A stretch of DNA of 64,000 nt from Thermomicrobiales bacterium. GTDB lineage: Bacteria > Chloroflexota > Chloroflexia > Thermomicrobiales > UBA6265. Below the pieces are notes generated by a model. It saw nothing but the letters and a program-made list of their open reading frames with translations, made no database searches and was not told where the DNA came from. Where the stretch lies: positions 7,113 to 71,112 of the forward strand of contig DATBFX010000008.1 of assembly GCA_036558305.1 (NCBI GenBank), in the 5' to 3' direction. A program made the translations under genes and the position numbers. Shown one piece after another: positions 3,564-11,676 of the stretch (positions are counted from its first letter, which is position 1; the number at the start of each line of letters is the position of its first letter).

Positions 3564-3917
3564 ATGGCGAGGCACGTGGTGGGGCGCGTCGAGGAGATTC
3601 CGCCGGGAGGGCGGAAGATCGTGCGGTTGGAGGGGCGGGAAGTCGGGATCTTCAACCTGGGCGGGCGTTTCTACGCGCTGAAGAATTCGTGTCCGCACCA
3701 GGCGGCGCGGGTCTGTCTCGGGAAGATCGTGGGGACTGCTTTGGCGTCCGAGGTGTACGAATTCCGGTATGGCCGGGAAGGACGGATCCTGCGATGTCCG
3801 TGGCACGAGTGGGAGTACGACATCGCGACCGGCGAGGCGGTGTTCGACCAGTGCGTGCGGCTCAAGACGTACCCGACGGAGGTCTGTGGCGAGGAAATCG
3901 TCGTCACGATCGCGTGA
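3564..3917 (+). CDS. Rieske [2Fe-2S] ferredoxin-like protein
   Basis: 117 aa with the two Rieske boxes CPHQ (C-x-H) and CPWHEW (C-x-x-H). Confidence 0.85.
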   Translation: MARHVVGRVEEIPPGGRKIVRLEGREVGIFNLGGRFYALKNSCPHQAARVCLGKIVGTALASEVYEFRYGREGRILRCPWHEWEYDIATGEAVFDQCVRLKTYPTEVCGEEIVVTIA

Positions 3918-4147
3918 TGGGAATGGAGATCGCGATCCGGTATTGTGCGGAGCGTGGGTTCGAGGAACCGGCGCTGCTGTTCGCGCGGCGGCTGTTTGCC
4001 GAGTTCGACGAGGCGATCGAGTCACTGGCACTGGTGCCGGTCGAGGATGAGGACCTTGCGGTCTATCTCAACGGCCAACTCGTGCACTCCACGAGCGAAA
4101 GCGGGAGGCTGCCGAGGATCGCCAGCCTTCGCTTAGGTCAGGAGTGA
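3917..4147 (+). CDS. Rdx (SelW/SelT/SelH-like) family small protein with a degenerate redox motif
   Basis: ATG at 3917 overlaps the Rieske TGA stop (ATGA). MEIAIRYCAERGF...LVPVEDEDLAVYLNGQLVHSTSESGRLP resembles the Rdx fold signature. The CxxC/U motif reads CAER. Confidence 0.55.
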   Translation: MGMEIAIRYCAERGFEEPALLFARRLFAEFDEAIESLALVPVEDEDLAVYLNGQLVHSTSESGRLPRIASLRLGQE

Positions 4148-4804
4148 CTGTCTCTTCCCGATTGGTAGTAGGTTCGATCTCTTAGGGCAGGTTGTGGCCA
4201 TTATTGTGCGTCCAAATCGGAGCGTTCCTGGCGTGTCAGTGGCAGATGGTTCCGATGGTTCGCGAAGGCAATCTCTGGACTCGAACCACGGACTCGATCC
4301 CACGGGTTGTGCGTTGCGACATCGGTCGCCGTGGATTGCTCGGAAGTGCCGGGATTGGAAGTGTTCTGGGTGCACCATCGGGAGACCTTCTCGGTATCCC
4401 CGGTCGCCGTCCCCACGAAGAACCCCTCTCTGCGGCGTCGTGACCGAACCGGTCGCCTGATCCCGCATCAAGGTTTGCCTACCTACGCCAGAGCGGGCAA
4501 ACCTGGGAGCAAACAGGACCCGTGCGGGCAGCGGAGGCCAGGAAGATGGTGTGAACAGAACGGTGTCCTCTGTTTGGAGGACGCGGTCCGTTCCCCCACG
4601 CTATACGATGGCAGCGCGTGTGGTCGCGCGGGTGGGAGTCCATAGCGGTTGCGGGCGAGGCGAGCGAGGCGGGTGCCGGAACGGCCCACTGTCGCTCCTT
4701 GCCCGGGATCGTTTCGGACACGCCGATCCCTATTGGCGCGGGGTCCGCGCCTCGTATCAGGGCTACTCCGTGCGTTGTCCGAGGGGATGTCGAGGAGTGA
4801 CGAC

Positions 4805-5701
4805 ATGCCGGAAACATTGGATGAGAACAGCTGGAAGCTCCTGCTGGGCCGGATCAAGAGCGGCCGATGTACGCCGTTCATCGGCGCGGGTGCTTGCTAC
4901 GGTGTCCTGCCACTCGGCCGCGAGATCGCAAGAGCATGGGCGGCGGACTGGGGCTACCCGCTGAAGGACAACGAGGATCTCGCACGCGTCGCGCAGTATC
5001 GGGCCGTGATGGCGGATCCGATGACGCCGAAGGAGGAAATCTGCGAGCGTTTTGCCAAGGTTGCTCCTCCCGATTTCGACGATCCTAAGCAGGCGCATCG
5101 CGTTCTGGCCGATTTGCCATTCCCGGTCTATCTGACGAGCAACTACGACGACTTCATGATGAAGGCACTCGCGGCGCGCAAACGGAATGCGGTGCGGGAA
5201 ATCTGCCAATGGAATGATGCGCTGGAAGATACCCCATCGGTCTTCAAATCCGCGGTGGGATTCGAGCCCACCGCGGCCAATTCGGTTGTCTACCACCTGC
5301 ACGGGCACATAGACATCCCCGAGTCGCTGGTCCTGACCGAGGACGACTATCTGGACTTCATGGTGAGGGTCGCCCAGGACCCCAATCTGTTGCCAGCACG
5401 CATCCAAAAGTCGATGTCGGGCGCCTCGCTCCTCTTCGTAGGGTATCGCCTCGCCGACTGGAATTTTCGGGTCCTGTTCCGCAGTCTCGTCACGTACATG
5501 CAACTCAGTACCCAACGAGCGCACGTCTCCGTTCAACTGAAGCCTGCTGCCGACGACGTCGCGGCGGAGCGCCAGCAACAGGCCATCAACTACCTGAAGC
5601 GTTCCTTCGATCGCAGCCTGATCAACATCTATTGGGGAACGAGTCAGGAATTCGCCGCCGAGCTCCGGGAGCGATGGGATGGCTATGCCGATGCCGACTG
5701 A
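4805..5701 (+). CDS. SIR2-like domain protein (predicted NAD+-consuming effector, SIR2_2-type)
   Basis: ATG at 4805 lies 7 nt after GAGGAG (alternative ATGs at 4787 and 4649). Sirtuin-like motifs are in order: FIGAGAC (GAG NAD loop), LTSNYDD (TxNYD), VVYHLHGH (catalytic His), LFVGYRLADWNF (GYxxxD). The stop overlaps the next gene. Confidence 0.8.
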   Translation: MPETLDENSWKLLLGRIKSGRCTPFIGAGACYGVLPLGREIARAWAADWGYPLKDNEDLARVAQYRAVMADPMTPKEEICERFAKVAPPDFDDPKQAHRVLADLPFPVYLTSNYDDFMMKALAARKRNAVREICQWNDALEDTPSVFKSAVGFEPTAANSVVYHLHGHIDIPESLVLTEDDYLDFMVRVAQDPNLLPARIQKSMSGASLLFVGYRLADWNFRVLFRSLVTYMQLSTQRAHVSVQLKPAADDVAAERQQQAINYLKRSFDRSLINIYWGTSQEFAAELRERWDGYADAD

Positions 5702-8700
5702 TACCCAACCATACGTCGGGCCTCGTCCCTTTGCGGTCGAGGACAGCGAACGCTTTTTCGGGCGAAACCGCGAGGTCAACGAACTGGTTTCGCTCGTCAC
5801 GGCACACGCCGTCCTCCTCCTCCACGCGCAGTCCGGAGCGGGGAAGTCGTCGTTGCTCAACGCCGGCGCCGTCCCTCAGCTTCAGAAAGAAGGGTTCGAG
5901 GTCTTGCCGGTCGCCCGCATTCGTGGCTGGCTTCCGCCCTCTGTCAGGATCGAGGACGTCGAGAATCCATTTGTCTACGACACCATCGCAAGCTGGGCCG
6001 GCGAAAACGCCGAACCGGCAGAGTTTGCTTCCTGGAGCCTCCTGCGGGCGCTGCAGGGGCGGAAGCGCGGACAGGACGAGTTGGGTCAGGATGCTCCCCG
6101 ACTGCTCGCGTTCGATCAATTCGAGGAGTTCTTCACGCTCTATCCAGAGCACTGGCCACAGCGCGAAGGATTCTTCGAGCAGGTTGCTGAGGTTCTCCAC
6201 TGCGATCCGCTCACGCGGGTTCTCTTTTGCGCGCGCGAGGAGTGGATTGCCCAATTCGACCGCTACGCGCCGATCCTGCCCGAGAAGGTTCGCACGCGGA
6301 TGCACCTGCAGCGGCTCGGTTCGGAGAGCGCACTGGCGGCGGTTACCGAACCGCTCAGCCAGACGGCGCGCACGTACGCGCCGGGTGTGGCCGAACGTCT
6401 CGTCGGCGATCTCATCCAGGAGCGAGTGGAATCGAGCGTTGGAGAAGCGCTCGAGATCGTCGAGATAACTGGAGAGTTCGTCGAGCCGGTACAGTTGCAG
6501 GTTGTTTGCCAAAGCCTCTGGAACGCGCTTCCACCCGACACGACGCAGATCACGTTTGACCATTTGGCGCGGTATGGCGACGTCGATCGTGCGTTGACGC
6601 GGTTCTACGATGATGCGGTGGCGACCGCGGCACTTTCTGCCGGAATCGACGAAGCGCATTTGCGCCGTTGGTGTGAAGACAAGCTCATCACGGCGACGGG
6701 CACACGGGCAATTGTGCACCAGGAGCGCGACAAGACCCAGGGGATTGCCAACGAGGCGCTCGCCGTACTCGAAGCCAGGCATCTCATACGCATCGAGCGC
6801 AGGTCCGGCGCAAATTGGTATGAACTGACGCACGACCGACTGATTGAACCGATCAAAGTCGGAAATGCCGCCTGGTTCCCCTCCAATCTCACGGCCCTGC
6901 AGATTCAGGCCAAGAATTGGGATGTTCAAGGCCGGCCAAGTGGGTTGCTGTTGCGCGGCCAATTGCTGGCGGATGCGCTTGAGTGGGCAGCGTCGCATCC
7001 CGACCTCCTCTCGGAGGTCGAGCGAGCCTACGTCGAAGCGAGCCACGCGGAACGGGATCAGGAGGAACGGGAGCGCCGCGAGAAGGAGCTACGCGAGGCA
7101 TCGGAGCGGGCCGAACTCGCCGAAGCGCGCAGACGGGCCGAGGAAGCGGCGAGACTCGAAGCGGAACGGAGGAGCGTGGAGAAGACACAAGCGGCGGGGC
7201 GGCTGCGTCGTCTGCTTGTGGTTGCCGTGGTTGCTTCCCTGATCGCGATGTCGGCGGCCGGTGCGTTCTTCCACCAGAAGGACGTGGCAAGCGACGCGAA
7301 ATCGACGGCCGTTGCCGCCCAAAGCACCGCCGAAGCGCAGGCGCTGGTCGCCAATGGGGTTGCCCAATCGCGGCAATTGGTCTCGCAGGCCGTCCAACCC
7401 TTGCGCGACGGTCAGATCGACCTTGCGCTGTTGCTTGGTCTCCAAGCAAACCGCATCGACGACTCGGTGGACACGAGAAGCAGCTTGATGGCCGGGTTGG
7501 CGGCCAGTCCGCATCTGACGGGCATCCTCCACGATGCGCCCGATTCGGTGAAGACGGTGGCGGTCAGTCCGAATGGGGCGACGCTGGCCGCCGGCAGTTG
7601 CGGAGAACGCGCCGAACAAGGGCAGGGTTGTGCGGAGGGTGCGATCCAGCTCTGGGATGCGGAGACGGGGGTGCCGCGAGAACCGGCGCTGCTCGGACAC
7701 GGGGATTGGATCTCGGGCCTGGCATACAGCCCCGACGGCGGCAGACTCGTCTCAAGCAGTTGGGACGGCACCATCATGTTGTGGGATGTCAGCTCCGGCA
7801 AGGCCCTCGGACAGTCGGCAGCGGTGCACCGTGATCGCGTGACGAGTGTTGCATTCAGTCCCGACGGAAACACCATCGCCTCCGGCGGACTCGACAAACG
7901 GGTCATCCTCTGGGATGCCGAGACGCTCCAGCTCACGTACGATCTTCCCGACGACCGATTCGGTGTATCCAGCGTTGCCTTCGATCCCAGCGGCAAACGC
8001 CTCGCCGCCGGCAACCTGGACGGGACCGTGACTCTTTGGAATCTGGAGGAGTCTCCTCCGAGCGGGGTGTCGCTGGACGGCGATGGCGTGTCCATCCGCA
8101 GCCTCGCATTCAGTCCGGACGGTCGGACCCTTGCAACCGGCGGGGATTCCAAGGTGATCCGTCTGTGGAATGTCGAGACGCGGGAGGAAGTCGGCAAACC
8201 CCTCGATGGACACACCGCCCCGGTGTTCGGTGTTGCTTTCAGCTCGGATGGGAAGACGCTTGCGTCGAGCAGTCTGGACAAGACGATCTACCTCTGGGAT
8301 GTCGTCAGGCACGAGCGGATCGATCCGGCCCTGATCGGTCACCAAGAAGGCGTTAGCTCGGTCGCGTTTGCCTCCGACGGGGTGAGACTGGTCTCCGGAG
8401 GATTCGACGGCGAGGTCATGCTCTGGGATGTGGGGCGGAATGTGCCGCTCGGGCGTCGATTGACCGGTCACACCGACGACGTGTACTCGGTCGCCGTCAG
8501 CCCCGACGGGAAGATGGCGGCCTCCGGAAGCTGGGACAAGACGATTATCCTCTGGGATCTGGAGACCGGGAAGGCGATCGGCGAACCACTCATCGGACAC
8601 CACGGCGAGGTGTACGGCGTGGCGTTCAGCCCGGACGGGAAGATGTTGGCCTCGGGAAGCGCGGACAAGACGGTGATCCTGTGGGACGTGGCGAGCCGCA

Positions 8701-9455
8701 CGGCACTCGGCCCGCCGCTCGCGGGGCACGCGGATTGGGTCGACACCGTGGCGTTCAGCCCGGACGGGAAGATGTTGGCCTCGGGGAGCAGGGACAAGAC
8801 GGTGATCCTGTGGGACGTGGCGAGCCACACAGCGATCGGCCCGCCGCTGACAGGACCCGGCGACCGGGTGACCAGTGTCGCCTTTAGCCCGGACGGACTG
8901 GTGCTCGCCGCCGGCAGTCGCGATCAGACCATCCGACTTTGGGATGCCCGATCTCGCGAACCGATCGGCTCCCCGCTGGTGGGTCACACCGACTGGGTCA
9001 ATAGCGTTGCCTTCAGCACCGACGGGAAGCTCCTCGCTTCGGGAGGCCGCGACTCGACGATTCGGCTGTGGGATGTCTCGAGCCGGCAACCGATCACTAG
9101 GCTCGTGGTGGCGCAGCCGAAGGAAGTGCTGAGCGTGGCGTTCAGTCCGGACGGGTCGACGCTGGCGTCCGGGATTTCGGATGGCACGATCGTGTTCTGG
9201 GGGTTGAAGGCCAAACGTCCGCTGCAACCGCCGTTGGCCGGTCACGACGATCGCGTCAACAGTGTTGCCTATAGCGCAGATGGAAGGCTGCTTGTTTCGG
9301 GCAGCGGCGACAAGACCGTCACGATGCGACAAGCGGCGATCTCGACGTGGCGAGAGCAAGCTTGCCAGATCGCCAACCGCGAGTTGACGGAAGAGGAGAG
9401 GGGTCTCTACATGGCAGGGATCGATTACGGCCCGACGTGCGATGGCCCCCGGTGA
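5679..9455 (+). CDS. STAND-type P-loop NTPase (nSTAND/NACHT-like) with coiled coil, one TM helix and 14 WD40 repeats
   Basis: ATG at 5679 lies 8 nt after GGGAG and overlaps the SIR2 gene by 23 nt. The N-terminus PYVGPRPFAVEDSERFFGRNREV...LLLHAQSGAGKSSLLNAG holds Walker A. LLAFDQFEE is Walker B-like. A charged coiled coil spans about nt 7040-7200 and the hydrophobic helix LLVVAVVASLIAMSAAGAFF spans nt 7210-7272. Fourteen GH..V.SVAFSPDG..LASGS.D.T..LWD units run from about nt 7500 to 9330. Confidence 0.85.
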   Translation: MAMPMPTDTQPYVGPRPFAVEDSERFFGRNREVNELVSLVTAHAVLLLHAQSGAGKSSLLNAGAVPQLQKEGFEVLPVARIRGWLPPSVRIEDVENPFVYDTIASWAGENAEPAEFASWSLLRALQGRKRGQDELGQDAPRLLAFDQFEEFFTLYPEHWPQREGFFEQVAEVLHCDPLTRVLFCAREEWIAQFDRYAPILPEKVRTRMHLQRLGSESALAAVTEPLSQTARTYAPGVAERLVGDLIQERVESSVGEALEIVEITGEFVEPVQLQVVCQSLWNALPPDTTQITFDHLARYGDVDRALTRFYDDAVATAALSAGIDEAHLRRWCEDKLITATGTRAIVHQERDKTQGIANEALAVLEARHLIRIERRSGANWYELTHDRLIEPIKVGNAAWFPSNLTALQIQAKNWDVQGRPSGLLLRGQLLADALEWAASHPDLLSEVERAYVEASHAERDQEERERREKELREASERAELAEARRRAEEAARLEAERRSVEKTQAAGRLRRLLVVAVVASLIAMSAAGAFFHQKDVASDAKSTAVAAQSTAEAQALVANGVAQSRQLVSQAVQPLRDGQIDLALLLGLQANRIDDSVDTRSSLMAGLAASPHLTGILHDAPDSVKTVAVSPNGATLAAGSCGERAEQGQGCAEGAIQLWDAETGVPREPALLGHGDWISGLAYSPDGGRLVSSSWDGTIMLWDVSSGKALGQSAAVHRDRVTSVAFSPDGNTIASGGLDKRVILWDAETLQLTYDLPDDRFGVSSVAFDPSGKRLAAGNLDGTVTLWNLEESPPSGVSLDGDGVSIRSLAFSPDGRTLATGGDSKVIRLWNVETREEVGKPLDGHTAPVFGVAFSSDGKTLASSSLDKTIYLWDVVRHERIDPALIGHQEGVSSVAFASDGVRLVSGGFDGEVMLWDVGRNVPLGRRLTGHTDDVYSVAVSPDGKMAASGSWDKTIILWDLETGKAIGEPLIGHHGEVYGVAFSPDGKMLASGSADKTVILWDVASRTALGPPLAGHADWVDTVAFSPDGKMLASGSRDKTVILWDVASHTAIGPPLTGPGDRVTSVAFSPDGLVLAAGSRDQTIRLWDARSREPIGSPLVGHTDWVNSVAFSTDGKLLASGGRDSTIRLWDVSSRQPITRLVVAQPKEVLSVAFSPDGSTLASGISDGTIVFWGLKAKRPLQPPLAGHDDRVNSVAYSADGRLLVSGSGDKTVTMRQAAISTWREQACQIANRELTEEERGLYMAGIDYGPTCDGPR
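8619..8847 (+). repeat. Near-identical 129-nt tandem units inside the WD40 region (blades 9 and 10)
   Basis: GTGGCGTTCAGCCCGGACGGGAAGATGTTGGCCTCGGG.AGC..GGACAAGACGGTGATCCTGTGGGACGTGGCGAGCC.CAC occurs at 8619 and again at 8748. Only a few substitutions differ over about 100 nt. Confidence 0.75.
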
Positions 9456-9525
9456 GACGGAGGTGAACACGTTCTGACCGCCACCCCGTCGTCTGCAATG
9501 CCCATGTGCGCGGAAGGAGTTGACA

Positions 9526-10041
9526 ATGCGCAGGATCGGAGTCGGTATCGGCATCGTCGCGATGACGCTGGCTGCCCTCGTGGCGCCGGATCGAGCAACC
9601 GTGCTCAACGCCGCGTCACCTCCCCCGGAGAATGAGCTGGAGCTCGTGACGCTCGTCAGTTGGTTTCAATATGACGCCGACGCGGATGCCCTTGCCCTCG
9701 GTCCGATCGCCGCCGACGGCGAATTCGTGGCTCGCGCGGGAGGGGAGGGAGTTGACGTGAAGGTCGGCAAAGCCGACTTCGATCTCGAAGACGATCACGC
9801 AACGATCCTTCTCGGGGCGAACGAGTTCGAGGGCTACCCGGTTTCGGATGCGGATGCGAATTCGTTCTGGCGGTGGTACTACTTCAACGACGACGAAAAT
9901 AGTCGTCCCGGCACCCTCGTGATCCAGGTGCGCGCGACCAAGGGACCGTACCGAGGTCGCGAAGGGACCGCGACGTTTGTATCCAGAGGGCGAGAATCAG
10001 ACGCGAGTGGCATCCTGGCGATTCTCCTACGACCCGCCTGA
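9526..10041 (+). CDS. Hypothetical secreted or membrane-anchored protein
   Basis: ATG at 9526 follows GGAAGGAG. The N-terminus MRRIGVGIGIVAMTLAALVAP looks like a signal peptide. No recognisable family. Same strand as the STAND gene, 70 nt downstream. Confidence 0.55.
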   Translation: MRRIGVGIGIVAMTLAALVAPDRATVLNAASPPPENELELVTLVSWFQYDADADALALGPIAADGEFVARAGGEGVDVKVGKADFDLEDDHATILLGANEFEGYPVSDADANSFWRWYYFNDDENSRPGTLVIQVRATKGPYRGREGTATFVSRGRESDASGILAILLRPA

Positions 10042-10647
10042 GAATATCAACAAGAGAATCGGCTTTTGAGAGCCGCCGTCCCGGCGATTTTTCGCGCTGA
10101 GGTGCCCCTTTGGCTGTTGAGGGAGGCATTGAGGGCAGGCGGCGCCTGAGTAGATGCTGGGAGGTTTGCGCTGGCGGTGGCCTCCTAACCCCTGTCCCCC
10201 TTTCCCCGGCGGTCGGGAGAAGGGGGTGCAGCGTGCCGCCATCCGAGGCGCGTTGTCCCCAGCACCCACTTAGCCCGGCTTATTCACGGGCGACGCTCGT
10301 CGCCAGATCGTCATTCCGAGCGAAGGCGAGGAATCTCCCGGAGCGCAGCGGAGGCGCCGCATGGCCGGCGTGTTGCCTCTGGCGGAGTGAGATTTCCTTC
10401 GGCAGGCTCAGGACAGGCTCTCGGCGTCGCTCGAAATAACGGGGGTTGTCGGCACCCAGGAAGAATCGGGGGTAGTCGATCCGAGCGCAACGCTTGTTGC
10501 CGCCGGCGCGCCGCAGATACCGGCTGAGCCAGACGAACCTTCGGGACTTCACTGAGTGGGAATGACGGCGGCACCGACCGGTGCCGCCGTCAGACCGTCG
10601 GGTGGTCGGCGCGGGGTGCGATCCGTTCGCGCCTTGTCCCAGACCGG
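10042..10647. repeat. ORF-poor patchwork of fragments of at least three intergenic repeat families
   Basis: 10186-10232 resembles the 41400-41446 element (CGGTCGGGAGA.GGGGG). 10307-10357 resembles 54338-54385 (ATCGTCATTCCGAGC...GAGGAATCTCCCGGAGCG.AGCGGAGGCG). 10389-10420 (TTCGGCAGGCTCAGGACAGG) is a further repeat-like module. Confidence 0.55.
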
Positions 10648-11676
10648 TTAGGCTTGATCGACGATCACGACCGTAACCTCGGAAAGGCCGCCACCCGGTG
10701 GAGGATTGAAGACGGTCACCTGCAACTCGCTCGGCGCCGTCAAATCCGACGGGATGAGGGTGGCAACGAGTTTGGTCGAGTTGACGAAAGTCGTGACCCG
10801 ATTCGTGCCGTTGATCCTGACTTCCGACTTCTGGACGAAGTCCCGGCCGTGGACGTCGAGCGAAATCTGGCCGCTGCCGACCTTCATCTTGGGCGGTTCG
10901 ATGCCGGTGACGACCGGTGCCGGATTCGTCAGTTTGTCGCCGCGGGCTTCCGGTTTGTCCGTTTTGAAGAGGTCGTCGAAGAGTTCGGCCAGTTTGTCGG
11001 TTGCCTGTTTGGCGAACATCCCGACGAGACCCGCAACGGCGGTAATACCGAACGTACTGACGTCTTGACCGGTTGCCCCTGCCGAGAGGAGTCCACCCCG
11101 GATCACGAAATAGAAGATGGTCGCCAGCACGGACCCGATGAACGGGCGCAGGATATACCACCAGTTCCAACTCGACGAAGCGCGCCGGTTTCCGACGAAG
11201 TCGGCGAACGAGGTGGCCGCGTGGATGAAACTCCCTAAGGCACCAACCGTCGCGACGAGGAGGATCAGGCGCATTTCGAGGTCGACGTTCAAATGGAGGA
11301 ATCCAAAGAGGGTAGTCTTGGTCTCTGTCGTGGGTTGGCCCGTCCGTGGCCAGAGTTTATAGACGACGTAGATCAGGGCAAGCGGCAGGACGAGGAAGTA
11401 TGCGCCGAGCAGAGTTCTGCCGAGCCACTTGAGCGGCGGTGCCGGGGTGATCGATGGCGTCACCGCCGGCGGCGTGGTCGTGGGCGCCGTGGTGGTCGTC
11501 GTCGTCGCGGTCGGTGGTGCCGTCGTTGTCAGCGGCGGTCGCGTGGTCGTGGGTGGCGCGGTGGTCGTCGTCACTGCCGTTGGCAACGGCGGTGCCGTTG
11601 TTAGCGGCGGTGGCGTGGTGGTCGTTACCGCTGGCAGACCTGGTTCGGGGGGAATCGTCGTGGTCCCGTTGGACAT
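10648..11676 (-). CDS. Membrane protein: Pro/Thr-rich N-terminus, about 4 TM helices, C-terminal IPT/TIG-like Ig domain
   Basis: ATG at 11676 lies 9 nt after GGAGG. About 85 aa are P/T-rich, followed by hydrophobic helices (LLGAYFLVLPLALIYVV, LILLVATVGALGSFIHA, ILRPFIGSVLATIFYFVI, FGITAVAGLVGMF). The C-terminus VTGIEPPKMKVGSGQISLDVHGRDF...LQVTVFNPPPGGGLS resembles IPT/TIG. Confidence 0.65.
   Translation of the reverse strand: MSNGTTTIPPEPGLPAVTTTTPPPLTTAPPLPTAVTTTTAPPTTTRPPLTTTAPPTATTTTTTAPTTTPPAVTPSITPAPPLKWLGRTLLGAYFLVLPLALIYVVYKLWPRTGQPTTETKTTLFGFLHLNVDLEMRLILLVATVGALGSFIHAATSFADFVGNRRASSSWNWWYILRPFIGSVLATIFYFVIRGGLLSAGATGQDVSTFGITAVAGLVGMFAKQATDKLAELFDDLFKTDKPEARGDKLTNPAPVVTGIEPPKMKVGSGQISLDVHGRDFVQKSEVRINGTNRVTTFVNSTKLVATLIPSDLTAPSELQVTVFNPPPGGGLSEVTVVIVDQA

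What the first reader, a model, noticed from the sequence alone, without database searches (positions are those of the whole stretch)
4805..9455. Overlapping SIR2-like gene + STAND NTPase/14-blade WD40 gene: candidate split, Avs-like NAD-depletion immune module
Seen in sequence: a 298-aa protein carries the ordered sirtuin-type motifs GAG (FIGAGAC), TxNYD (LTSNYDD), LHGH and GYxxxD. Its TGA (5699-5701) lies 23 nt inside the next ORF, which has its own GGGAG RBS. That ORF opens with PYVGPRPF..D..FFGR.REV...(hydrophobic)..SGAGKSSLLNAG plus a LLAFDQFEE Walker B. I recognise this N-terminal pattern from the novel STAND (nSTAND1-like) NTPases usually fused to WD40/TPR sensors. Fourteen WD40 blades (two 7-blade propellers) follow. 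Established knowledge: SIR2 domains are NADase effectors in Thoeris ThsA, DSR1/2, SIR2-HerA, SPARSA and in the fused SIR2-STAND Avs5. STAND NTPases with repeat sensors are the core of Avs/NLR-like antiviral systems. Inference: here effector and sensor/switch sit on separate, translationally coupled polypeptides instead of one chain, and the sensor is WD40 rather than TPR-like. That arrangement is not a named defence system that I know of.
Basis: partly seen in the sequence, partly recalled or inferred. Interest (0 to 1): 0.85.

Follow-up and report, generated by a model that had tools for sequence, protein, structure and literature searches.

The report
SIR2 NADase paired with membrane-spanning STAND receptor
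A small NAD-destroying enzyme gene overlaps a gene for a large switch protein that appears to cross the membrane and carry its WD40 sensor outside the cytoplasm; this looks like an undescribed "outside-in" relative of bacterial NLR-like immune receptors, and it is conserved in hundreds of bacteria and archaea.

Summary
A 298-aa SIR2_2 protein (4805-5701) overlaps a 1258-aa nSTAND1 NTPase with 14 WD40 repeats (5679-9455).

The pair is a conserved unit. In all 79 of 80 related loci with downstream sequence, from more than 15 bacterial phyla and methanogenic archaea, SIR2 is followed directly by a close nSTAND1 homologue. The STAND start usually lies inside the SIR2 gene.

The SIR2 resembles only defence NADases (ThsA, KomC, DSR2) and keeps the catalytic Asn and His.

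This helix is conserved in about 85% of relatives and obeys the positive-inside rule (60 of 62). In sister proteins it is followed by PASTA, CHASE2, lysozyme, laminin-G or FGE-sulfatase domains. So the sensor is predicted to lie outside the cytoplasm, unlike Avs.

A 3-4-TM/TIG gene nearby (10648-11463, minus strand) belongs to a family that recurs next to such modules.

Effector swaps and fusions (TIR, trypsin, CHAT, DUF4062) support a death or immunity effector role. No link to defence islands, phages or plasmids was found, and no paper describing the pair was found.

Verdict: new variant of a known kind. The function is inferred, not shown.

The parts
4792..4797 (+). GAGGAG ribosome-binding site, 7 nt upstream of the SIR2 start codon
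   Evidence: Read directly from the sequence.
4805..5701 (+). SIR2_2-type gene, 298 aa, predicted NADase effector. GAG motif at residues 27-29, N113-Y-D115, H164-x-H166, G213-Y.
   Evidence: Pfam PF13289, E 2.5e-25. PADLOC hit to the ThsA SIR2 part, 2.9e-20. Profile against PDB sequences: SeThsA 2.4e-18, then KomC, ThsA, DSR2. The top 26 Foldseek hits are all ThsA, KomC or DSR2. N113, H164 and H166 are invariant in 20 homologues. The full signature is kept in 82 of 92 family members.
5679..5701 (+). Overlap between the end of SIR2 and the start of the STAND gene: 23 nt from ATG 5679, 17 nt from 5685, 11 nt from 5691. GGGAG lies at 5667-5671.
   Evidence: In 78 related pairs the conserved PYVGPRPF motif starts a median of about 13 nt after the SIR2 stop. 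The mode is 7 nt (26 loci), the same as in the window. The STAND start codon therefore lies inside SIR2 in most pairs.
5679..9455 (+). STAND gene, 1258 aa: nSTAND1 NTPase, coiled coil, TM helix, then 14 WD40 repeats
5709..6878 (+). nSTAND1 NTPase module, residues 11-400: nucleotide-binding domain, helical domain and winged helix. Walker A SGAGKSS is at residues 52-58 (nt 5832-5852). Walker B LLAFDQFEE is at residues 142-150 (nt 6102-6128).
   Evidence: Pfam PF20703, E 8e-36. AlphaFold2 model with mean pLDDT 91.5. Foldseek hits to ORC/Cdc6, archaeal ATPases 2qen and 2fna, MalT, CED-4 and Apaf-1. G53, K56, D146, Q147 and E149 are invariant in 120 homologues.
7014..7202 (+). Long charged helix or coiled-coil stalk, residues 446-508
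   Evidence: The AF2 model gives one continuous helix from residue 446 to 540. The sequence is rich in E, R and A.
7203..7271 (+). Predicted transmembrane helix, residues 509-531 (LRRLLVVAVVASLIAMSAAGAFF), oriented N-in/C-out
   Evidence: Kyte-Doolittle 2.43 over 19 residues. An equivalent segment is present in about 62 of 72 paired homologues and in 71 of 100 database homologues of at least 450 aa. K/R count is 5.7 upstream against 2.9 downstream; 60 of 62 have more upstream; Wilcoxon 5e-11. In sister proteins the segment is followed by PASTA, CHASE2, lysozyme, Laminin_G_3, FGE-sulfatase or InlB B-repeat domains.
7479..9332 (+). Fourteen WD40 repeats (two propellers), residues 601-1218, predicted to lie outside the cytoplasm. 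This is the variable sensor. 129-bp DNA repeats lie at 8490-8896.
   Evidence: Pfam WD40, E 8.7e-137. 43-aa repeat register. Tandem DNA repeats about 80% identical. The sensor type differs in 16 of 60 nearest-neighbour NTPase pairs.
10648..11463 (-). Candidate third component: a membrane protein with 3-4 TM segments and a C-terminal IPT/TIG domain. The start may lie further upstream, at ATG 11676 or 11685. It is convergent with the STAND gene and lies 1.2 kb downstream of it.
   Evidence: It is homologous (tblastn E down to 6e-28) to a roughly 200-aa membrane protein encoded directly beside the pair in 9 of 80 loci, upstream in 8 and downstream in L053. A weaker tenth match lies in L057, 2.2 kb downstream of the pair. 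Reverse look-ups: L095 has SIR2 + nSTAND1-TM-WD40 + this protein in one operon, and L094 has SIR2_2 + this protein with TIG. TIG hit. Membership in the system is inferred, not shown.

Best explanation
This is a two-gene, possibly three-gene, 'outside-in' NAD-depletion switch.

SHOWN by sequence and comparison:
- A SIR2 protein of the defence-NADase type and an nSTAND1 NTPase are encoded as a strictly conserved, overlapping gene pair. They evolve together as one constant unit.
- The region C-terminal to the NTPase is swapped freely between relatives.

PREDICTED from hydropathy, charge bias, the domain repertoire and an AF2 model:
- The STAND protein sits in the cytoplasmic membrane.
- Its NTPase is inside the cell.
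- A coiled-coil stalk runs into one transmembrane helix.
- The two WD40 propellers face the periplasm or cell surface.

INFERRED by analogy with Apaf-1, NLR and Avs proteins, and with ThsA, DSR2, Avs5 and SIR2-HerA:
- A ligand binds the outside propellers.
- This releases the NTPase for nucleotide-dependent oligomerisation on the inner face of the membrane.
- The oligomer recruits or clusters the SIR2 partner and switches on NAD+ hydrolysis.
- The cell then stops growing or dies.

The trigger is unknown. It is most likely an attack at the level of the envelope: a phage at or crossing the envelope, cell-wall damage, or a competing or non-kin cell.

The nearby 3-4-TM/TIG protein may act as a membrane partner or a second, holin-like effector. 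This last point is speculative.
For: Pairing and coupling:
- All 79 of 80 fetched loci with downstream sequence have SIR2 followed by nSTAND1 on the same strand. The remaining one, L071, ends at the contig edge.
- The overlap is a family trait.
- SIR2 and NTPase identities co-vary: Mantel r 0.67, 0 of 999 permutations reach it.
- nSTAND1-SIR2 fusion proteins exist, for example P0250, P0269, P0335 and P0388.

NADase character:
- Only ThsA, KomC and DSR2 are hit by profile and by fold.
- The catalytic N113 and H166 are invariant.

Effector role:
- The same family is fused to Trypsin_2, TIR_2 or CHAT.
- A close NTPase relative carries a fused N-terminal TIR (P0152).
- A DUF4062 (TIR-like NADase) gene precedes an nSTAND1-coiled-coil-TM-WD40 gene in L085.

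Topology:
- The hydrophobic helix is conserved.
- The positive-inside rule holds in 60 of 62.
- TM-bearing relatives carry PASTA, CHASE2, GH24 lysozyme, Laminin_G_3, FGE-sulfatase, InlB B-repeat, CBM96 or M4-peptidase domains after the helix. TM-less relatives carry patatin or S24 peptidase.
- SIR2 is confirmed upstream of the PASTA, CHASE2 and lysozyme variants.
- The AF2 model (pLDDT 91.5) shows one continuous helix from 446 to 540.

Conflict-system style:
- The distribution is patchy, spanning more than 15 phyla plus archaea at 50-60% identity.
- Several copies per genome carry unrelated sensors.
Against: - No experiment supports any step. NADase activity, membrane topology, SIR2-STAND contact and the trigger are all inferred.
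- Neighbouring genes are mostly housekeeping. No real enrichment of defence or mobile-element genes was seen in 149 neighbours of 21 loci or in five annotated contexts.
- The family is absent from phage genomes and IMG/VR contigs, and nearly absent from plasmids.
- The SIR2 model has only modest confidence (pLDDT 63).
- No adaptor (EAD) or other docking element between SIR2 and STAND was identified.
- TPR and WD40 repeats outside the cytoplasm are less usual than inside it.
- One TM-bearing clade (L037-type) has a weak FHIPEP-like hit after the helix. That domain is normally cytoplasmic.
Confidence: 0.55

Rival explanations
1. Cytoplasmic Avs-like antiviral sensor. The WD40 propellers bind a phage protein inside the cell, the STAND oligomerises and the SIR2 depletes NAD+. 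The hydrophobic segment would be only a membrane tether or a buried helix.
For: - SIR2 plus STAND plus a repeat sensor is the logic of Avs5 (literature found).
- Some relatives lack the hydrophobic segment and carry TPR repeats, for example L023, L045, L077 and Nonomuraea L093.
Against: - The segment is strongly hydrophobic over 19-26 residues and is conserved in about 85% of paired homologues.
- There is a charge bias across the segment.
- After the helix the relatives carry PASTA, CHASE2, lysozyme or CBM domains, which work outside the cytoplasm.
- No Avs model in PADLOC matches.
Confidence: 0.1
2. Non-immune envelope or environment signalling receptor. This would be a membrane STAND that senses a cell-wall or environmental cue, much like PASTA, WD40 or FGE-sulfatase receptor Ser/Thr kinases. 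It would use the SIR2 as a regulatory protein deacylase, an ADP-ribosyltransferase or an NAD-level modulator, for example for dormancy or development.
For: - The C-terminal repertoire (PASTA, CHASE2, TPR, WD40, FGE-sulfatase) is that of bacterial receptor kinases (literature found).
- Neighbours are housekeeping genes, with lipid A genes (LpxB, LpxD) recurring.
- There is no link to mobile elements.
- Some loci add a receiver-domain protein upstream.
Against: - The SIR2 is closest to suicide NADases, not to deacylase sirtuins.
- It is fused or swapped with TIR, trypsin, CHAT, patatin and DUF4062, which are death or immunity effectors.
- The distribution is patchy and looks like horizontal transfer.
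- Sensors are shuffled between relatives.
Confidence: 0.2
3. Self/non-self (kin) recognition or programmed cell death in filamentous or aggregating microbes, analogous to the fungal HET-E/NWD WD40 NLRs. Surface-exposed propellers would read the surface of neighbouring cells.
For: - The WD40 repeats are highly regular, with 129-bp DNA repeats about 80% identical.
- The family is enriched in Anaerolineae, Acidobacteriota and other taxa with complex lifestyles.
- nSTAND1 was defined in conflict systems of multicellular prokaryotes (PMC8195603).
Against: - There is no evidence of allelic hypervariability.
- The family also occurs in many taxa not known to be multicellular, and in methanogens.
- Many members have non-WD40 sensors.
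Confidence: 0.15

Closest known systems
Avs5 / AVAST type 5 (SIR2-STAND antiviral protein, e.g. EfAvs5)
   Same: A SIR2 NADase effector is combined with a STAND NTPase and a C-terminal sensor. The expected logic is that oligomerisation activates NAD+ hydrolysis.
   Different: Avs5 is one cytoplasmic polypeptide with SIR2 fused at the N terminus and a helical SAMD9-like sensor. Here the SIR2 is a separate, overlapping gene and the NTPase belongs to the nSTAND1 clade. No Avs model in PADLOC matches. A transmembrane helix places the WD40 sensor outside the cytoplasm.
nSTAND1 conflict systems of Kaur, Burroughs, Iyer and Aravind (eLife 2021, PMC8195603) and the DGR-diversified nSTAND1/NACHT-CLec sensors (PNAS 2024, PMC10907252)
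   Same: The NTPase family is the same (Pfam PF20703). The C-terminal sensors are variable (WD40, TPR, FGE-sulfatase). The effector set is the same (TIR, trypsin, caspase/CHAT). The PNAS paper already predicts that some STAND sensors are periplasmic.
   Different: Those descriptions couple effectors through fused domains or EAD adaptor pairs. Neither paper describes a SIR2 partner for nSTAND1: the eLife paper names SIR2 once, in a different system, and the PNAS paper does not mention it. The constant SIR2 + nSTAND1 + TM core with an overlapping gene pair is not described there. No EAD was detected here.
Thoeris ThsA, DSR2 and Kongming KomC (defence SIR2 NADases)
   Same: These are the closest relatives of the SIR2 protein by sequence profile and by fold. 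The catalytic Asn and His are conserved.
   Different: There is no SLOG domain and no ThsB partner. There is no DSR2-type C-terminal sensor and no KomA/KomB. The predicted activator is a membrane STAND NTPase.
Apaf-1 / CED-4 apoptosome and bacterial Apaf-1-like STANDs
   Same: An NBD-helical-winged-helix NTPase is followed by two WD40 propellers that act as the ligand sensor.
   Different: Similarity is at the fold level only (Foldseek E about 2e-4, TM about 0.26). Apaf-1 is soluble and recruits a caspase through CARD. Here there is a TM helix before the propellers and a separately encoded SIR2.
Receptor-type Hanks Ser/Thr kinases (PknB, PrkC, StkP and similar)
   Same: The topology is the same: a cytoplasmic enzymatic or switch module, a juxtamembrane segment, one TM helix and an outside sensor. 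The outside domain repertoire is the same, for example PASTA (literature found).
   Different: The cytoplasmic module is a STAND NTPase plus a trans-encoded NADase, not a kinase. The resemblance is in how it works, not in family membership.

Membership tests
SIR2_2 / defence-type SIR2 NADases (ThsA, DSR2, KomC clade) | Significant match to the SIR2_2 family model | tested here: met
   PF13289, E 2.5e-25, 89.7 bits against a cut-off of 24.5. PADLOC ThsA SIR2 part, 2.9e-20.
SIR2_2 / defence-type SIR2 NADases (ThsA, DSR2, KomC clade) | Rossmann GAG motif and catalytic Asn and His conserved | tested here: met
   G27, G29, N113, D115, H164 and H166 are invariant in 20 homologues. They align with the ttNYD and hlHGh motifs of SeThsA. 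The signature is kept in 82 of 92 family members.
SIR2_2 / defence-type SIR2 NADases (ThsA, DSR2, KomC clade) | Fold closest to solved defence NADases rather than to deacylase sirtuins | tested here: met
   The top 26 Foldseek PDB hits are all ThsA, KomC or DSR2 (E 1e-11 to 5e-6). The model has only modest confidence (pLDDT 63).
SIR2_2 / defence-type SIR2 NADases (ThsA, DSR2, KomC clade) | NAD+ hydrolase activity on activation | not testable with these tools
   Needs biochemistry.
STAND NTPases, nSTAND1 clade | Match to the nSTAND1 model above the curated cut-off | tested here: met
   PF20703, E 8e-36, 124.9 bits against 27.1, residues 11-390.
STAND NTPases, nSTAND1 clade | Walker A and Walker B motifs, and an NBD + helical + winged-helix architecture | tested here: met
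   SGAGKSS and LLAFDQFEE are present. G53, K56, D146, Q147 and E149 are invariant in 120 homologues. AF2 model has pLDDT 91.5. Foldseek hits ORC/Cdc6, 2qen, 2fna, MalT, CED-4 and Apaf-1. No solved structure is related by sequence.
STAND NTPases, nSTAND1 clade | C-terminal repeat or ligand-binding region that varies between relatives | tested here: met
   The window has 14 WD40 repeats. Relatives carry TPR, WD40, FGE-sulfatase, PASTA, CHASE2 and other domains.
Avs / AVAST antiviral STANDs (including Avs5) | Effector domain fused at the N terminus of the same polypeptide | tested here: not met
   The STAND protein begins with the nSTAND1 motif at residue 11. SIR2 is a separate ORF in a different reading frame.
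Avs / AVAST antiviral STANDs (including Avs5) | Match to Avs family models | tested here: not met
   PADLOC gives no Avs hit for the full protein or for residues 1-620. The only hits are HEAT-ARM_XIII through the WD40 repeats and PbeC at E 0.037.
Avs / AVAST antiviral STANDs (including Avs5) | Soluble cytoplasmic sensor that binds phage proteins | tested here: not met
   A predicted TM helix places the sensor outside the cytoplasm. This is a prediction, not a measurement.
Avs / AVAST antiviral STANDs (including Avs5) | Association with defence islands or mobile elements | tested here: not met
   149 neighbours of 21 loci gave only generic radical-SAM and kinase look-alike hits in PADLOC. There is no phage or IMG/VR hit, and there are only 3 remote plasmid hits. 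The sample is small and made of environmental MAGs.
Avs / AVAST antiviral STANDs (including Avs5) | Protection against phage | not testable with these tools
   Needs heterologous expression and phage challenge.
Thoeris (ThsA + ThsB) | ThsA has a C-terminal SLOG/STALD ligand-binding domain, and a TIR ThsB partner lies nearby | tested here: not met
   The protein is 298 aa and is SIR2 only. The ThsA profile is matched over positions 16-237 of 478. No TIR gene lies among the window neighbours.
EAD-coupled NTPase conflict systems (Kaur et al. 2020/2021) | Matching effector-associated domains (EADs) on the effector and on the NTPase | tested here: inconclusive
   No extra Pfam domain was found on either protein. 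Both are essentially all catalytic module. A short docking element cannot be excluded.

The most novel reading that the evidence does not exclude
This may be a widespread, undescribed class of transmembrane NLR-like receptors in bacteria and archaea. A STAND NTPase would read a signal OUTSIDE the cytoplasm through interchangeable surface or periplasmic domains (WD40, PASTA, CHASE2, lectin-like, lysozyme). It would then kill or arrest the cell from inside, through a separately encoded SIR2 NADase, sometimes together with a holin-like membrane protein of 3-4 TM segments. It would combine surface pattern recognition and STAND oligomerisation in a single protein. In eukaryotes these two functions are split between surface receptors and intracellular NLRs.
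Probability: 0.4. Interest if true: 0.85.

Novelty: new variant of a known kind. Interest (0 to 1): 0.72.

Why it matters
All characterised bacterial STAND immune sensors (Avs, bNACHT) and all eukaryotic NLRs detect their ligands inside the cell. A conserved family in which the STAND switch spans the membrane and carries exchangeable outside domains would extend NLR-type immunity, or cell-death control, to threats sensed at the envelope.

It would also give a second example, besides fused Avs5, of SIR2 NADase control by a STAND scaffold.

The family is large: 1,697 clusters at 50% identity with E up to 1e-30, and 411 loci among 185,579 species genomes. It is absent from the PADLOC models tested and mostly lives in poorly studied soil and sediment phyla and methanogens. 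It is therefore a concrete, testable candidate system.

A cultured actinomycete, Nonomuraea gerenzanensis, carries a relative of the pair (L093). Its STAND protein is a TM-less TPR form.

Tried and rejected
- Rfam search of 3900-10300 and of the whole window found no RNA family.
- The promoter and terminator scan of 3900-10300 gave counts no higher than in shuffled sequence.
- A profile of the NTPase against PDB sequences found nothing significant.
- Phage genomes, IMG/VR contigs and plasmids were searched for the SIR2 family. Phages and IMG/VR gave no match; plasmids gave three remote matches. The idea of a phage- or plasmid-borne module is therefore rejected.
- The PADLOC scan of 149 neighbouring ORFs gave 'pVip' and 'PD-T4-6' counts. 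The Pfam scan of the same set shows 5 Radical_SAM and 3 Pkinase proteins. I read the PADLOC hits as generic look-alikes, not as defence genes.
- A programmed frameshift producing a SIR2-STAND fusion was considered. The phase between the SIR2 stop and the STAND motif is not fixed across loci (mostly +1, but about 15 loci are +2), and every locus offers a start codon. Ordinary translational coupling is the simpler reading.
- A complex prediction of SIR2 with the NTPase was not possible.
- The 171-aa ORF at 9520-10041 has no family hit and no counterpart in other loci. I do not count it as part of the system.
- The taxonomic origin of the window was not determined. No rRNA or other Rfam-family RNA was found, and the identical contigs are anonymous JGI metagenome contigs.

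Full report
**1. Observation**

The window carries two overlapping ORFs on the plus strand at the stated coordinates.
- ORF 1 runs from ATG 4805 to TGA 5699-5701 and is 298 aa. A GAGGAG lies 7 nt upstream.
- ORF 2 runs from ATG 5679 to 9455 and is 1258 aa. GGGAG lies at 5667-5671.
- The overlap is 23 nt. In-frame ATGs at 5685 (the start used by public gene calls on identical metagenome contigs) and at 5691 would give 17 or 11 nt.

- ORF 1 is a Pfam SIR2_2 protein (E 2.5e-25).
- Residues 11-390 of ORF 2 match nSTAND1 (E 8e-36).
- The C-terminal half matches WD40 (E 8.7e-137, 13 stretches). By direct reading it has 14 repeats with a 43-aa period, residues 601-1218.

**2. The pair is a conserved unit**

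The SIR2 protein belongs to a large, tightly conserved family of stand-alone proteins of about 298 aa.
- 2,839 clusters at 90% identity match with E up to 1e-3, and the best are 55-60% identical across phyla.
- Mean column identity is 67% in a 20-sequence alignment.
- 1,697 clusters at 50% identity match with E up to 1e-30.
- A scan of 185,579 species-representative genomes found 411 loci.

The 80 fetched loci come from these groups:
- Acidobacteriota, Chloroflexota, Planctomycetota, Verrucomicrobiota and Pseudomonadota;
- Desulfobacterota, Bacteroidota, Actinomycetota, Thermotogota, Caldiserica and KSB1;
- the archaea Methanoperedens and Methanosarcinales.

In all 79 loci with downstream sequence, the SIR2 gene is followed directly, on the same strand, by a close homologue of the window's NTPase. 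phmmer E-values are mostly 1e-90 to 1e-136 over 420 residues, and weaker where the gene is truncated or split. The one exception ends at the contig edge.

The conserved N-terminal motif PYVGPRPF starts a median of about 13 nt after the SIR2 stop. The mode is 7 nt (26 loci), which is also the value in the window. In most loci the STAND start codon therefore lies inside the SIR2 gene, so overlap and translational coupling are traits of the family.

SIR2 and NTPase divergence are correlated (Mantel r 0.67, 0 of 999 permutations reach it). By contrast, 16 of 60 nearest-neighbour NTPases carry unrelated C-terminal regions. Several genomes hold two copies with unrelated sensors. The picture is a constant SIR2 + NTPase core with a variable sensor.

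**3. What the SIR2 is**

By sequence profile, the only solved relatives are SeThsA (2.4e-18), KomC, BcThsA and DSR2.

The AF2 model has only modest confidence (pLDDT 63, pTM 0.62). Even so, its top 26 Foldseek hits in the PDB are all ThsA, KomC or DSR2.

The residues that align with the catalytic Asn and His of these NADases are N113 and H166. Both are invariant. The full signature is kept in 82 of 92 family members.

The protein has no SLOG domain and no other extra domain.

Members of the same SIR2 family occur in fusions with several partners:
- Trypsin_2 (P0251, P0253), TIR_2 (P0319) and CHAT (L080);
- the C terminus of nSTAND1 proteins (P0250, P0269, P0335, P0388).

Other effectors also take the SIR2 position:
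- A close NTPase relative has an N-terminal fused TIR (P0152).
- In L085, a DUF4062 (TIR-like NADase) gene sits in front of an nSTAND1-coiled-coil-TM-WD40 gene in the same layout.

These swaps and Rosetta-stone fusions are the strongest comparative argument for two points. The SIR2 is the effector of the STAND protein, and it belongs to the death/immunity effector repertoire.

**4.

Between the NTPase and the WD40 repeats lies a long charged helix. It is followed by LRRLLVVAVVASLIAMSAAGAFF (residues 509-531, Kyte-Doolittle 2.43).

The AF2 model of residues 1-545 (120-sequence alignment, mean pLDDT 91.5) shows an NBD-helical-winged-helix module. After it, one uninterrupted helix runs from residue 446 to 540.

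An equivalent single hydrophobic segment occurs just after the NTPase in two samples:
- about 62 of 72 SIR2-paired homologues;
- 71 of 100 database homologues of at least 450 aa.

The 15 residues upstream of the segment hold on average 5.7 Lys/Arg, against 2.9 downstream. In 60 of 62 proteins there are more upstream (Wilcoxon 5e-11). This is the positive-inside signature of an N-in/C-out anchor.

The nature of the domains after the helix is decisive:
- PASTA x3 (P0211);
- CHASE2 (P0224);
- GH24 lysozyme (P0212);
- Laminin_G_3 (P0166);
- FGE-sulfatase (P0168);
- InlB B-repeat (P0215);
- WD40-PDZ (P0140);
- CBM96 (L020);
- thermolysin C-domain (L050).

Relatives without the helix carry patatin or S24 peptidase instead.

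An upstream SIR2 gene with an 8-nt overlap was confirmed for the PASTA, CHASE2 and lysozyme variants.

I conclude, as a prediction, that the window's two WD40 propellers face the periplasm or cell surface. The topology is that of receptor Ser/Thr kinases, not that of Avs proteins.

**5. A possible third gene**

A membrane protein of about 200 aa with 3-4 TM segments is encoded directly beside the pair in 9 of the 80 loci: upstream of SIR2 in 8 and downstream of the STAND gene in L053. A weaker tenth match lies in L057, 2.2 kb downstream of the pair.

The window has a homologue (tblastn E down to 6e-28) at 10648-11463 on the minus strand. It is fused to an IPT/TIG domain, and it lies 1.2 kb beyond the STAND stop, convergent with it.

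Reverse look-ups of this small family (437 clusters) gave four contexts:
- L095 has SIR2 + nSTAND1-TM-WD40 + this protein in one operon.
- L094 has a SIR2_2 gene followed by this protein with TIG.
- L096 could not be evaluated because the gene lies at the contig end.
- In Massilia (L097), the gene overlaps an Amidase_2/PG_binding_1 gene, an arrangement like a holin-endolysin pair.

The SIR2 proteins in L094 and L095 belong to other SIR2_2 subfamilies. The link therefore seems to be with SIR2_2 modules in general.

I list the gene as a candidate component. Its role, as membrane partner or holin-like co-effector, is speculative.

Other subsets of loci carry a TM + receiver-domain protein or another multi-TM protein upstream.

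**6. Context**

In the window the module sits between amidohydrolase, Rieske and Rdx genes on one side and genes for secreted-type proteins on the other.

In five annotated contexts and in 149 neighbouring ORFs of 21 loci, the neighbours are mainly housekeeping genes such as LpxB, LpxD, glycine cleavage and SHMT.

The PADLOC 'pVip' and 'PD-T4-6' counts correspond to generic radical-SAM enzymes and kinases.

No homologue was found in 50,697 phage genomes or in IMG/VR. Only three remote matches were found in plasmid records.

The classic guilt-by-association evidence for defence is therefore missing. This is weak negative evidence, because the genomes are environmental MAGs.

**7. Mechanism**

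Shown:
- The SIR2 and STAND genes are coupled and inherited together.
- The SIR2 has the sequence character of a defence NADase.
- The STAND protein has intact NTPase motifs.
- Sensors are shuffled between relatives.

Predicted:
- The topology is N-in/C-out.

Inferred by analogy:
- A ligand binds outside the cytoplasm.
- The NTPase oligomerises at the inner face of the membrane.
- The oligomer clusters and activates SIR2.
- NAD+ collapses and the cell arrests or dies.

In 12 loci with two tandem SIR2 copies, the first copy always keeps the catalytic signature. The copy next to the STAND gene has lost N113, H166 or G29 in 8 of 12. This fits a model in which SIR2-SIR2 contacts matter and a dead copy can serve as an adaptor.

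The nature of the trigger is open: phage at the envelope, wall damage, competitors or non-kin cells.

**8. Comparison with known systems and novelty**

The closest named system in logic is Avs5, a fused cytoplasmic SIR2-STAND. The NTPase family, nSTAND1, was defined by Kaur et al. 2021 (PMC8195603).
- That paper mentions SIR2 only once, in a different system.
- Kaur et al. 2020 does not mention SIR2 at all.
- The 2026 Nature survey of 589 STAND clades scores defence by fused effectors or defence neighbours. It does not mention SIR2 or this pair.
- The PNAS 2024 paper on DGR-diversified nSTAND1/NACHT-CLec sensors does predict periplasmic sensors for some targets, but it has no SIR2.

PADLOC v2 has no model for the STAND partner. 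Within the searchable literature I found no description of the SIR2 + TM-nSTAND1 module.

I therefore rate it a new variant of a known kind (STAND + NADase conflict systems), not a new category. The library lacks many subscription papers, so prior description cannot be excluded.

**9. Verdict**

It is a split SIR2-STAND module, but it is not Avs-like in where it senses.
- Confidence that the pair is one functional unit with SIR2 as the effector is high, about 0.85.
- Confidence that the sensor is extracytoplasmic is about 0.75.
- Confidence that the output is NAD+ depletion is about 0.6.
- Confidence that the biological role is antiviral is no more than about 0.35.
- Overall interest is 0.72.

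Noticed in passing
window 10648-11463 (-), possibly starting at 11676 or 11685: This gene encodes a membrane protein with 3-4 TM segments and a C-terminal IPT/TIG domain. It is homologous to a small family encoded directly beside SIR2-nSTAND1 pairs in 9 of 80 loci, with a weaker match 2.2 kb away in a tenth. The family also sits next to SIR2_2 genes in L094 and L095. It may be a third component of the system.
   Followed up: yes
L097 7001-8820 (Massilia sp.): A member of the same membrane-protein family overlaps by 4 nt an Amidase_2 + PG_binding_1 gene. The arrangement resembles a holin-endolysin cassette and hints that the family may be holin-like.
   Followed up: no
window 9520-10041 (+): A 171-aa ORF with a hydrophobic, signal-peptide-like N terminus lies between the STAND gene and the 3-4-TM/TIG gene. 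It is present in the same-species contigs. It has no Pfam hit and no counterpart in other loci.
   Followed up: partly
window 4148-4804: About 650 nt upstream of SIR2 carry no called gene. No Rfam family and no sigma-70-like promoter match were found there.
   Followed up: partly
window 8490-8896: 129-bp tandem DNA repeats, about 80% identical, encode WD40 blades 8 to 11, which are nearly identical. This suggests recent repeat duplication or homogenisation, as in the WD40 repeats of fungal NWD/HET-E proteins.
   Followed up: partly
L031, L034, L047, L050, L052, L055, L059, L062, L067, L070, L072, L078 (two tandem SIR2 genes before the STAND gene): The first SIR2 copy always keeps the catalytic signature GGNYDHHGGYD. 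The copy adjacent to the STAND gene has lost N113, H166 or G29 in 8 of 12 loci. It may be a pseudo-enzyme acting as an adaptor.
   Followed up: partly
L085/L086 1-3233 (-): A DUF4062 (TIR-like NADase) gene overlaps by 4 nt an nSTAND1-coiled-coil-TM-WD40 gene, 7 kb from a SIR2-nSTAND1-TPR pair in the same genome. The layout is the same with a different NADase.
   Followed up: partly
P0250, P0269, P0335, P0388; P0251, P0253; P0319; L080 7983-9593: Fusion proteins involving this SIR2 family: nSTAND1-linker-SIR2 (about 1000 aa), Trypsin_2-SIR2, TIR_2-SIR2 and SIR2-CHAT.
   Followed up: partly
L093 (Nonomuraea gerenzanensis NZ_LT559118.1, 854037-856563): A cultured actinomycete carries a relative of the pair. 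The SIR2 is 41% identical, and a 545-aa nSTAND1-TPR without a TM helix follows after a 10-nt gap. An NB-ARC/TPR-like gene lies upstream on the opposite strand. The record has no annotation for this stretch.
   Followed up: partly
L002, L006, L042, L046, L087, L088 (upstream of SIR2): A protein of about 215 aa, with one N-terminal TM segment and a receiver (Response_reg) domain, is encoded immediately upstream of SIR2 in a subset of loci. Another multi-TM protein takes this position in L003, L054 and L056.
   Followed up: partly
L037, L046, L063, L087 (STAND C-terminal regions of about 1150 aa): A conserved long C-terminal region follows the TM helix. It has only a weak FHIPEP-like hit and TPR-like repeats. 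Its nature and location are unclear, and it does not fit the 'outside domain' pattern neatly.
   Followed up: no
neighbours of 21 related loci (alignment A4): Macro-domain proteins (ADP-ribose binding or hydrolysis) occur among the neighbours in 2 cases. Lipid A genes (LpxB, LpxD) recur next to several Acidobacteriota loci.
   Followed up: no
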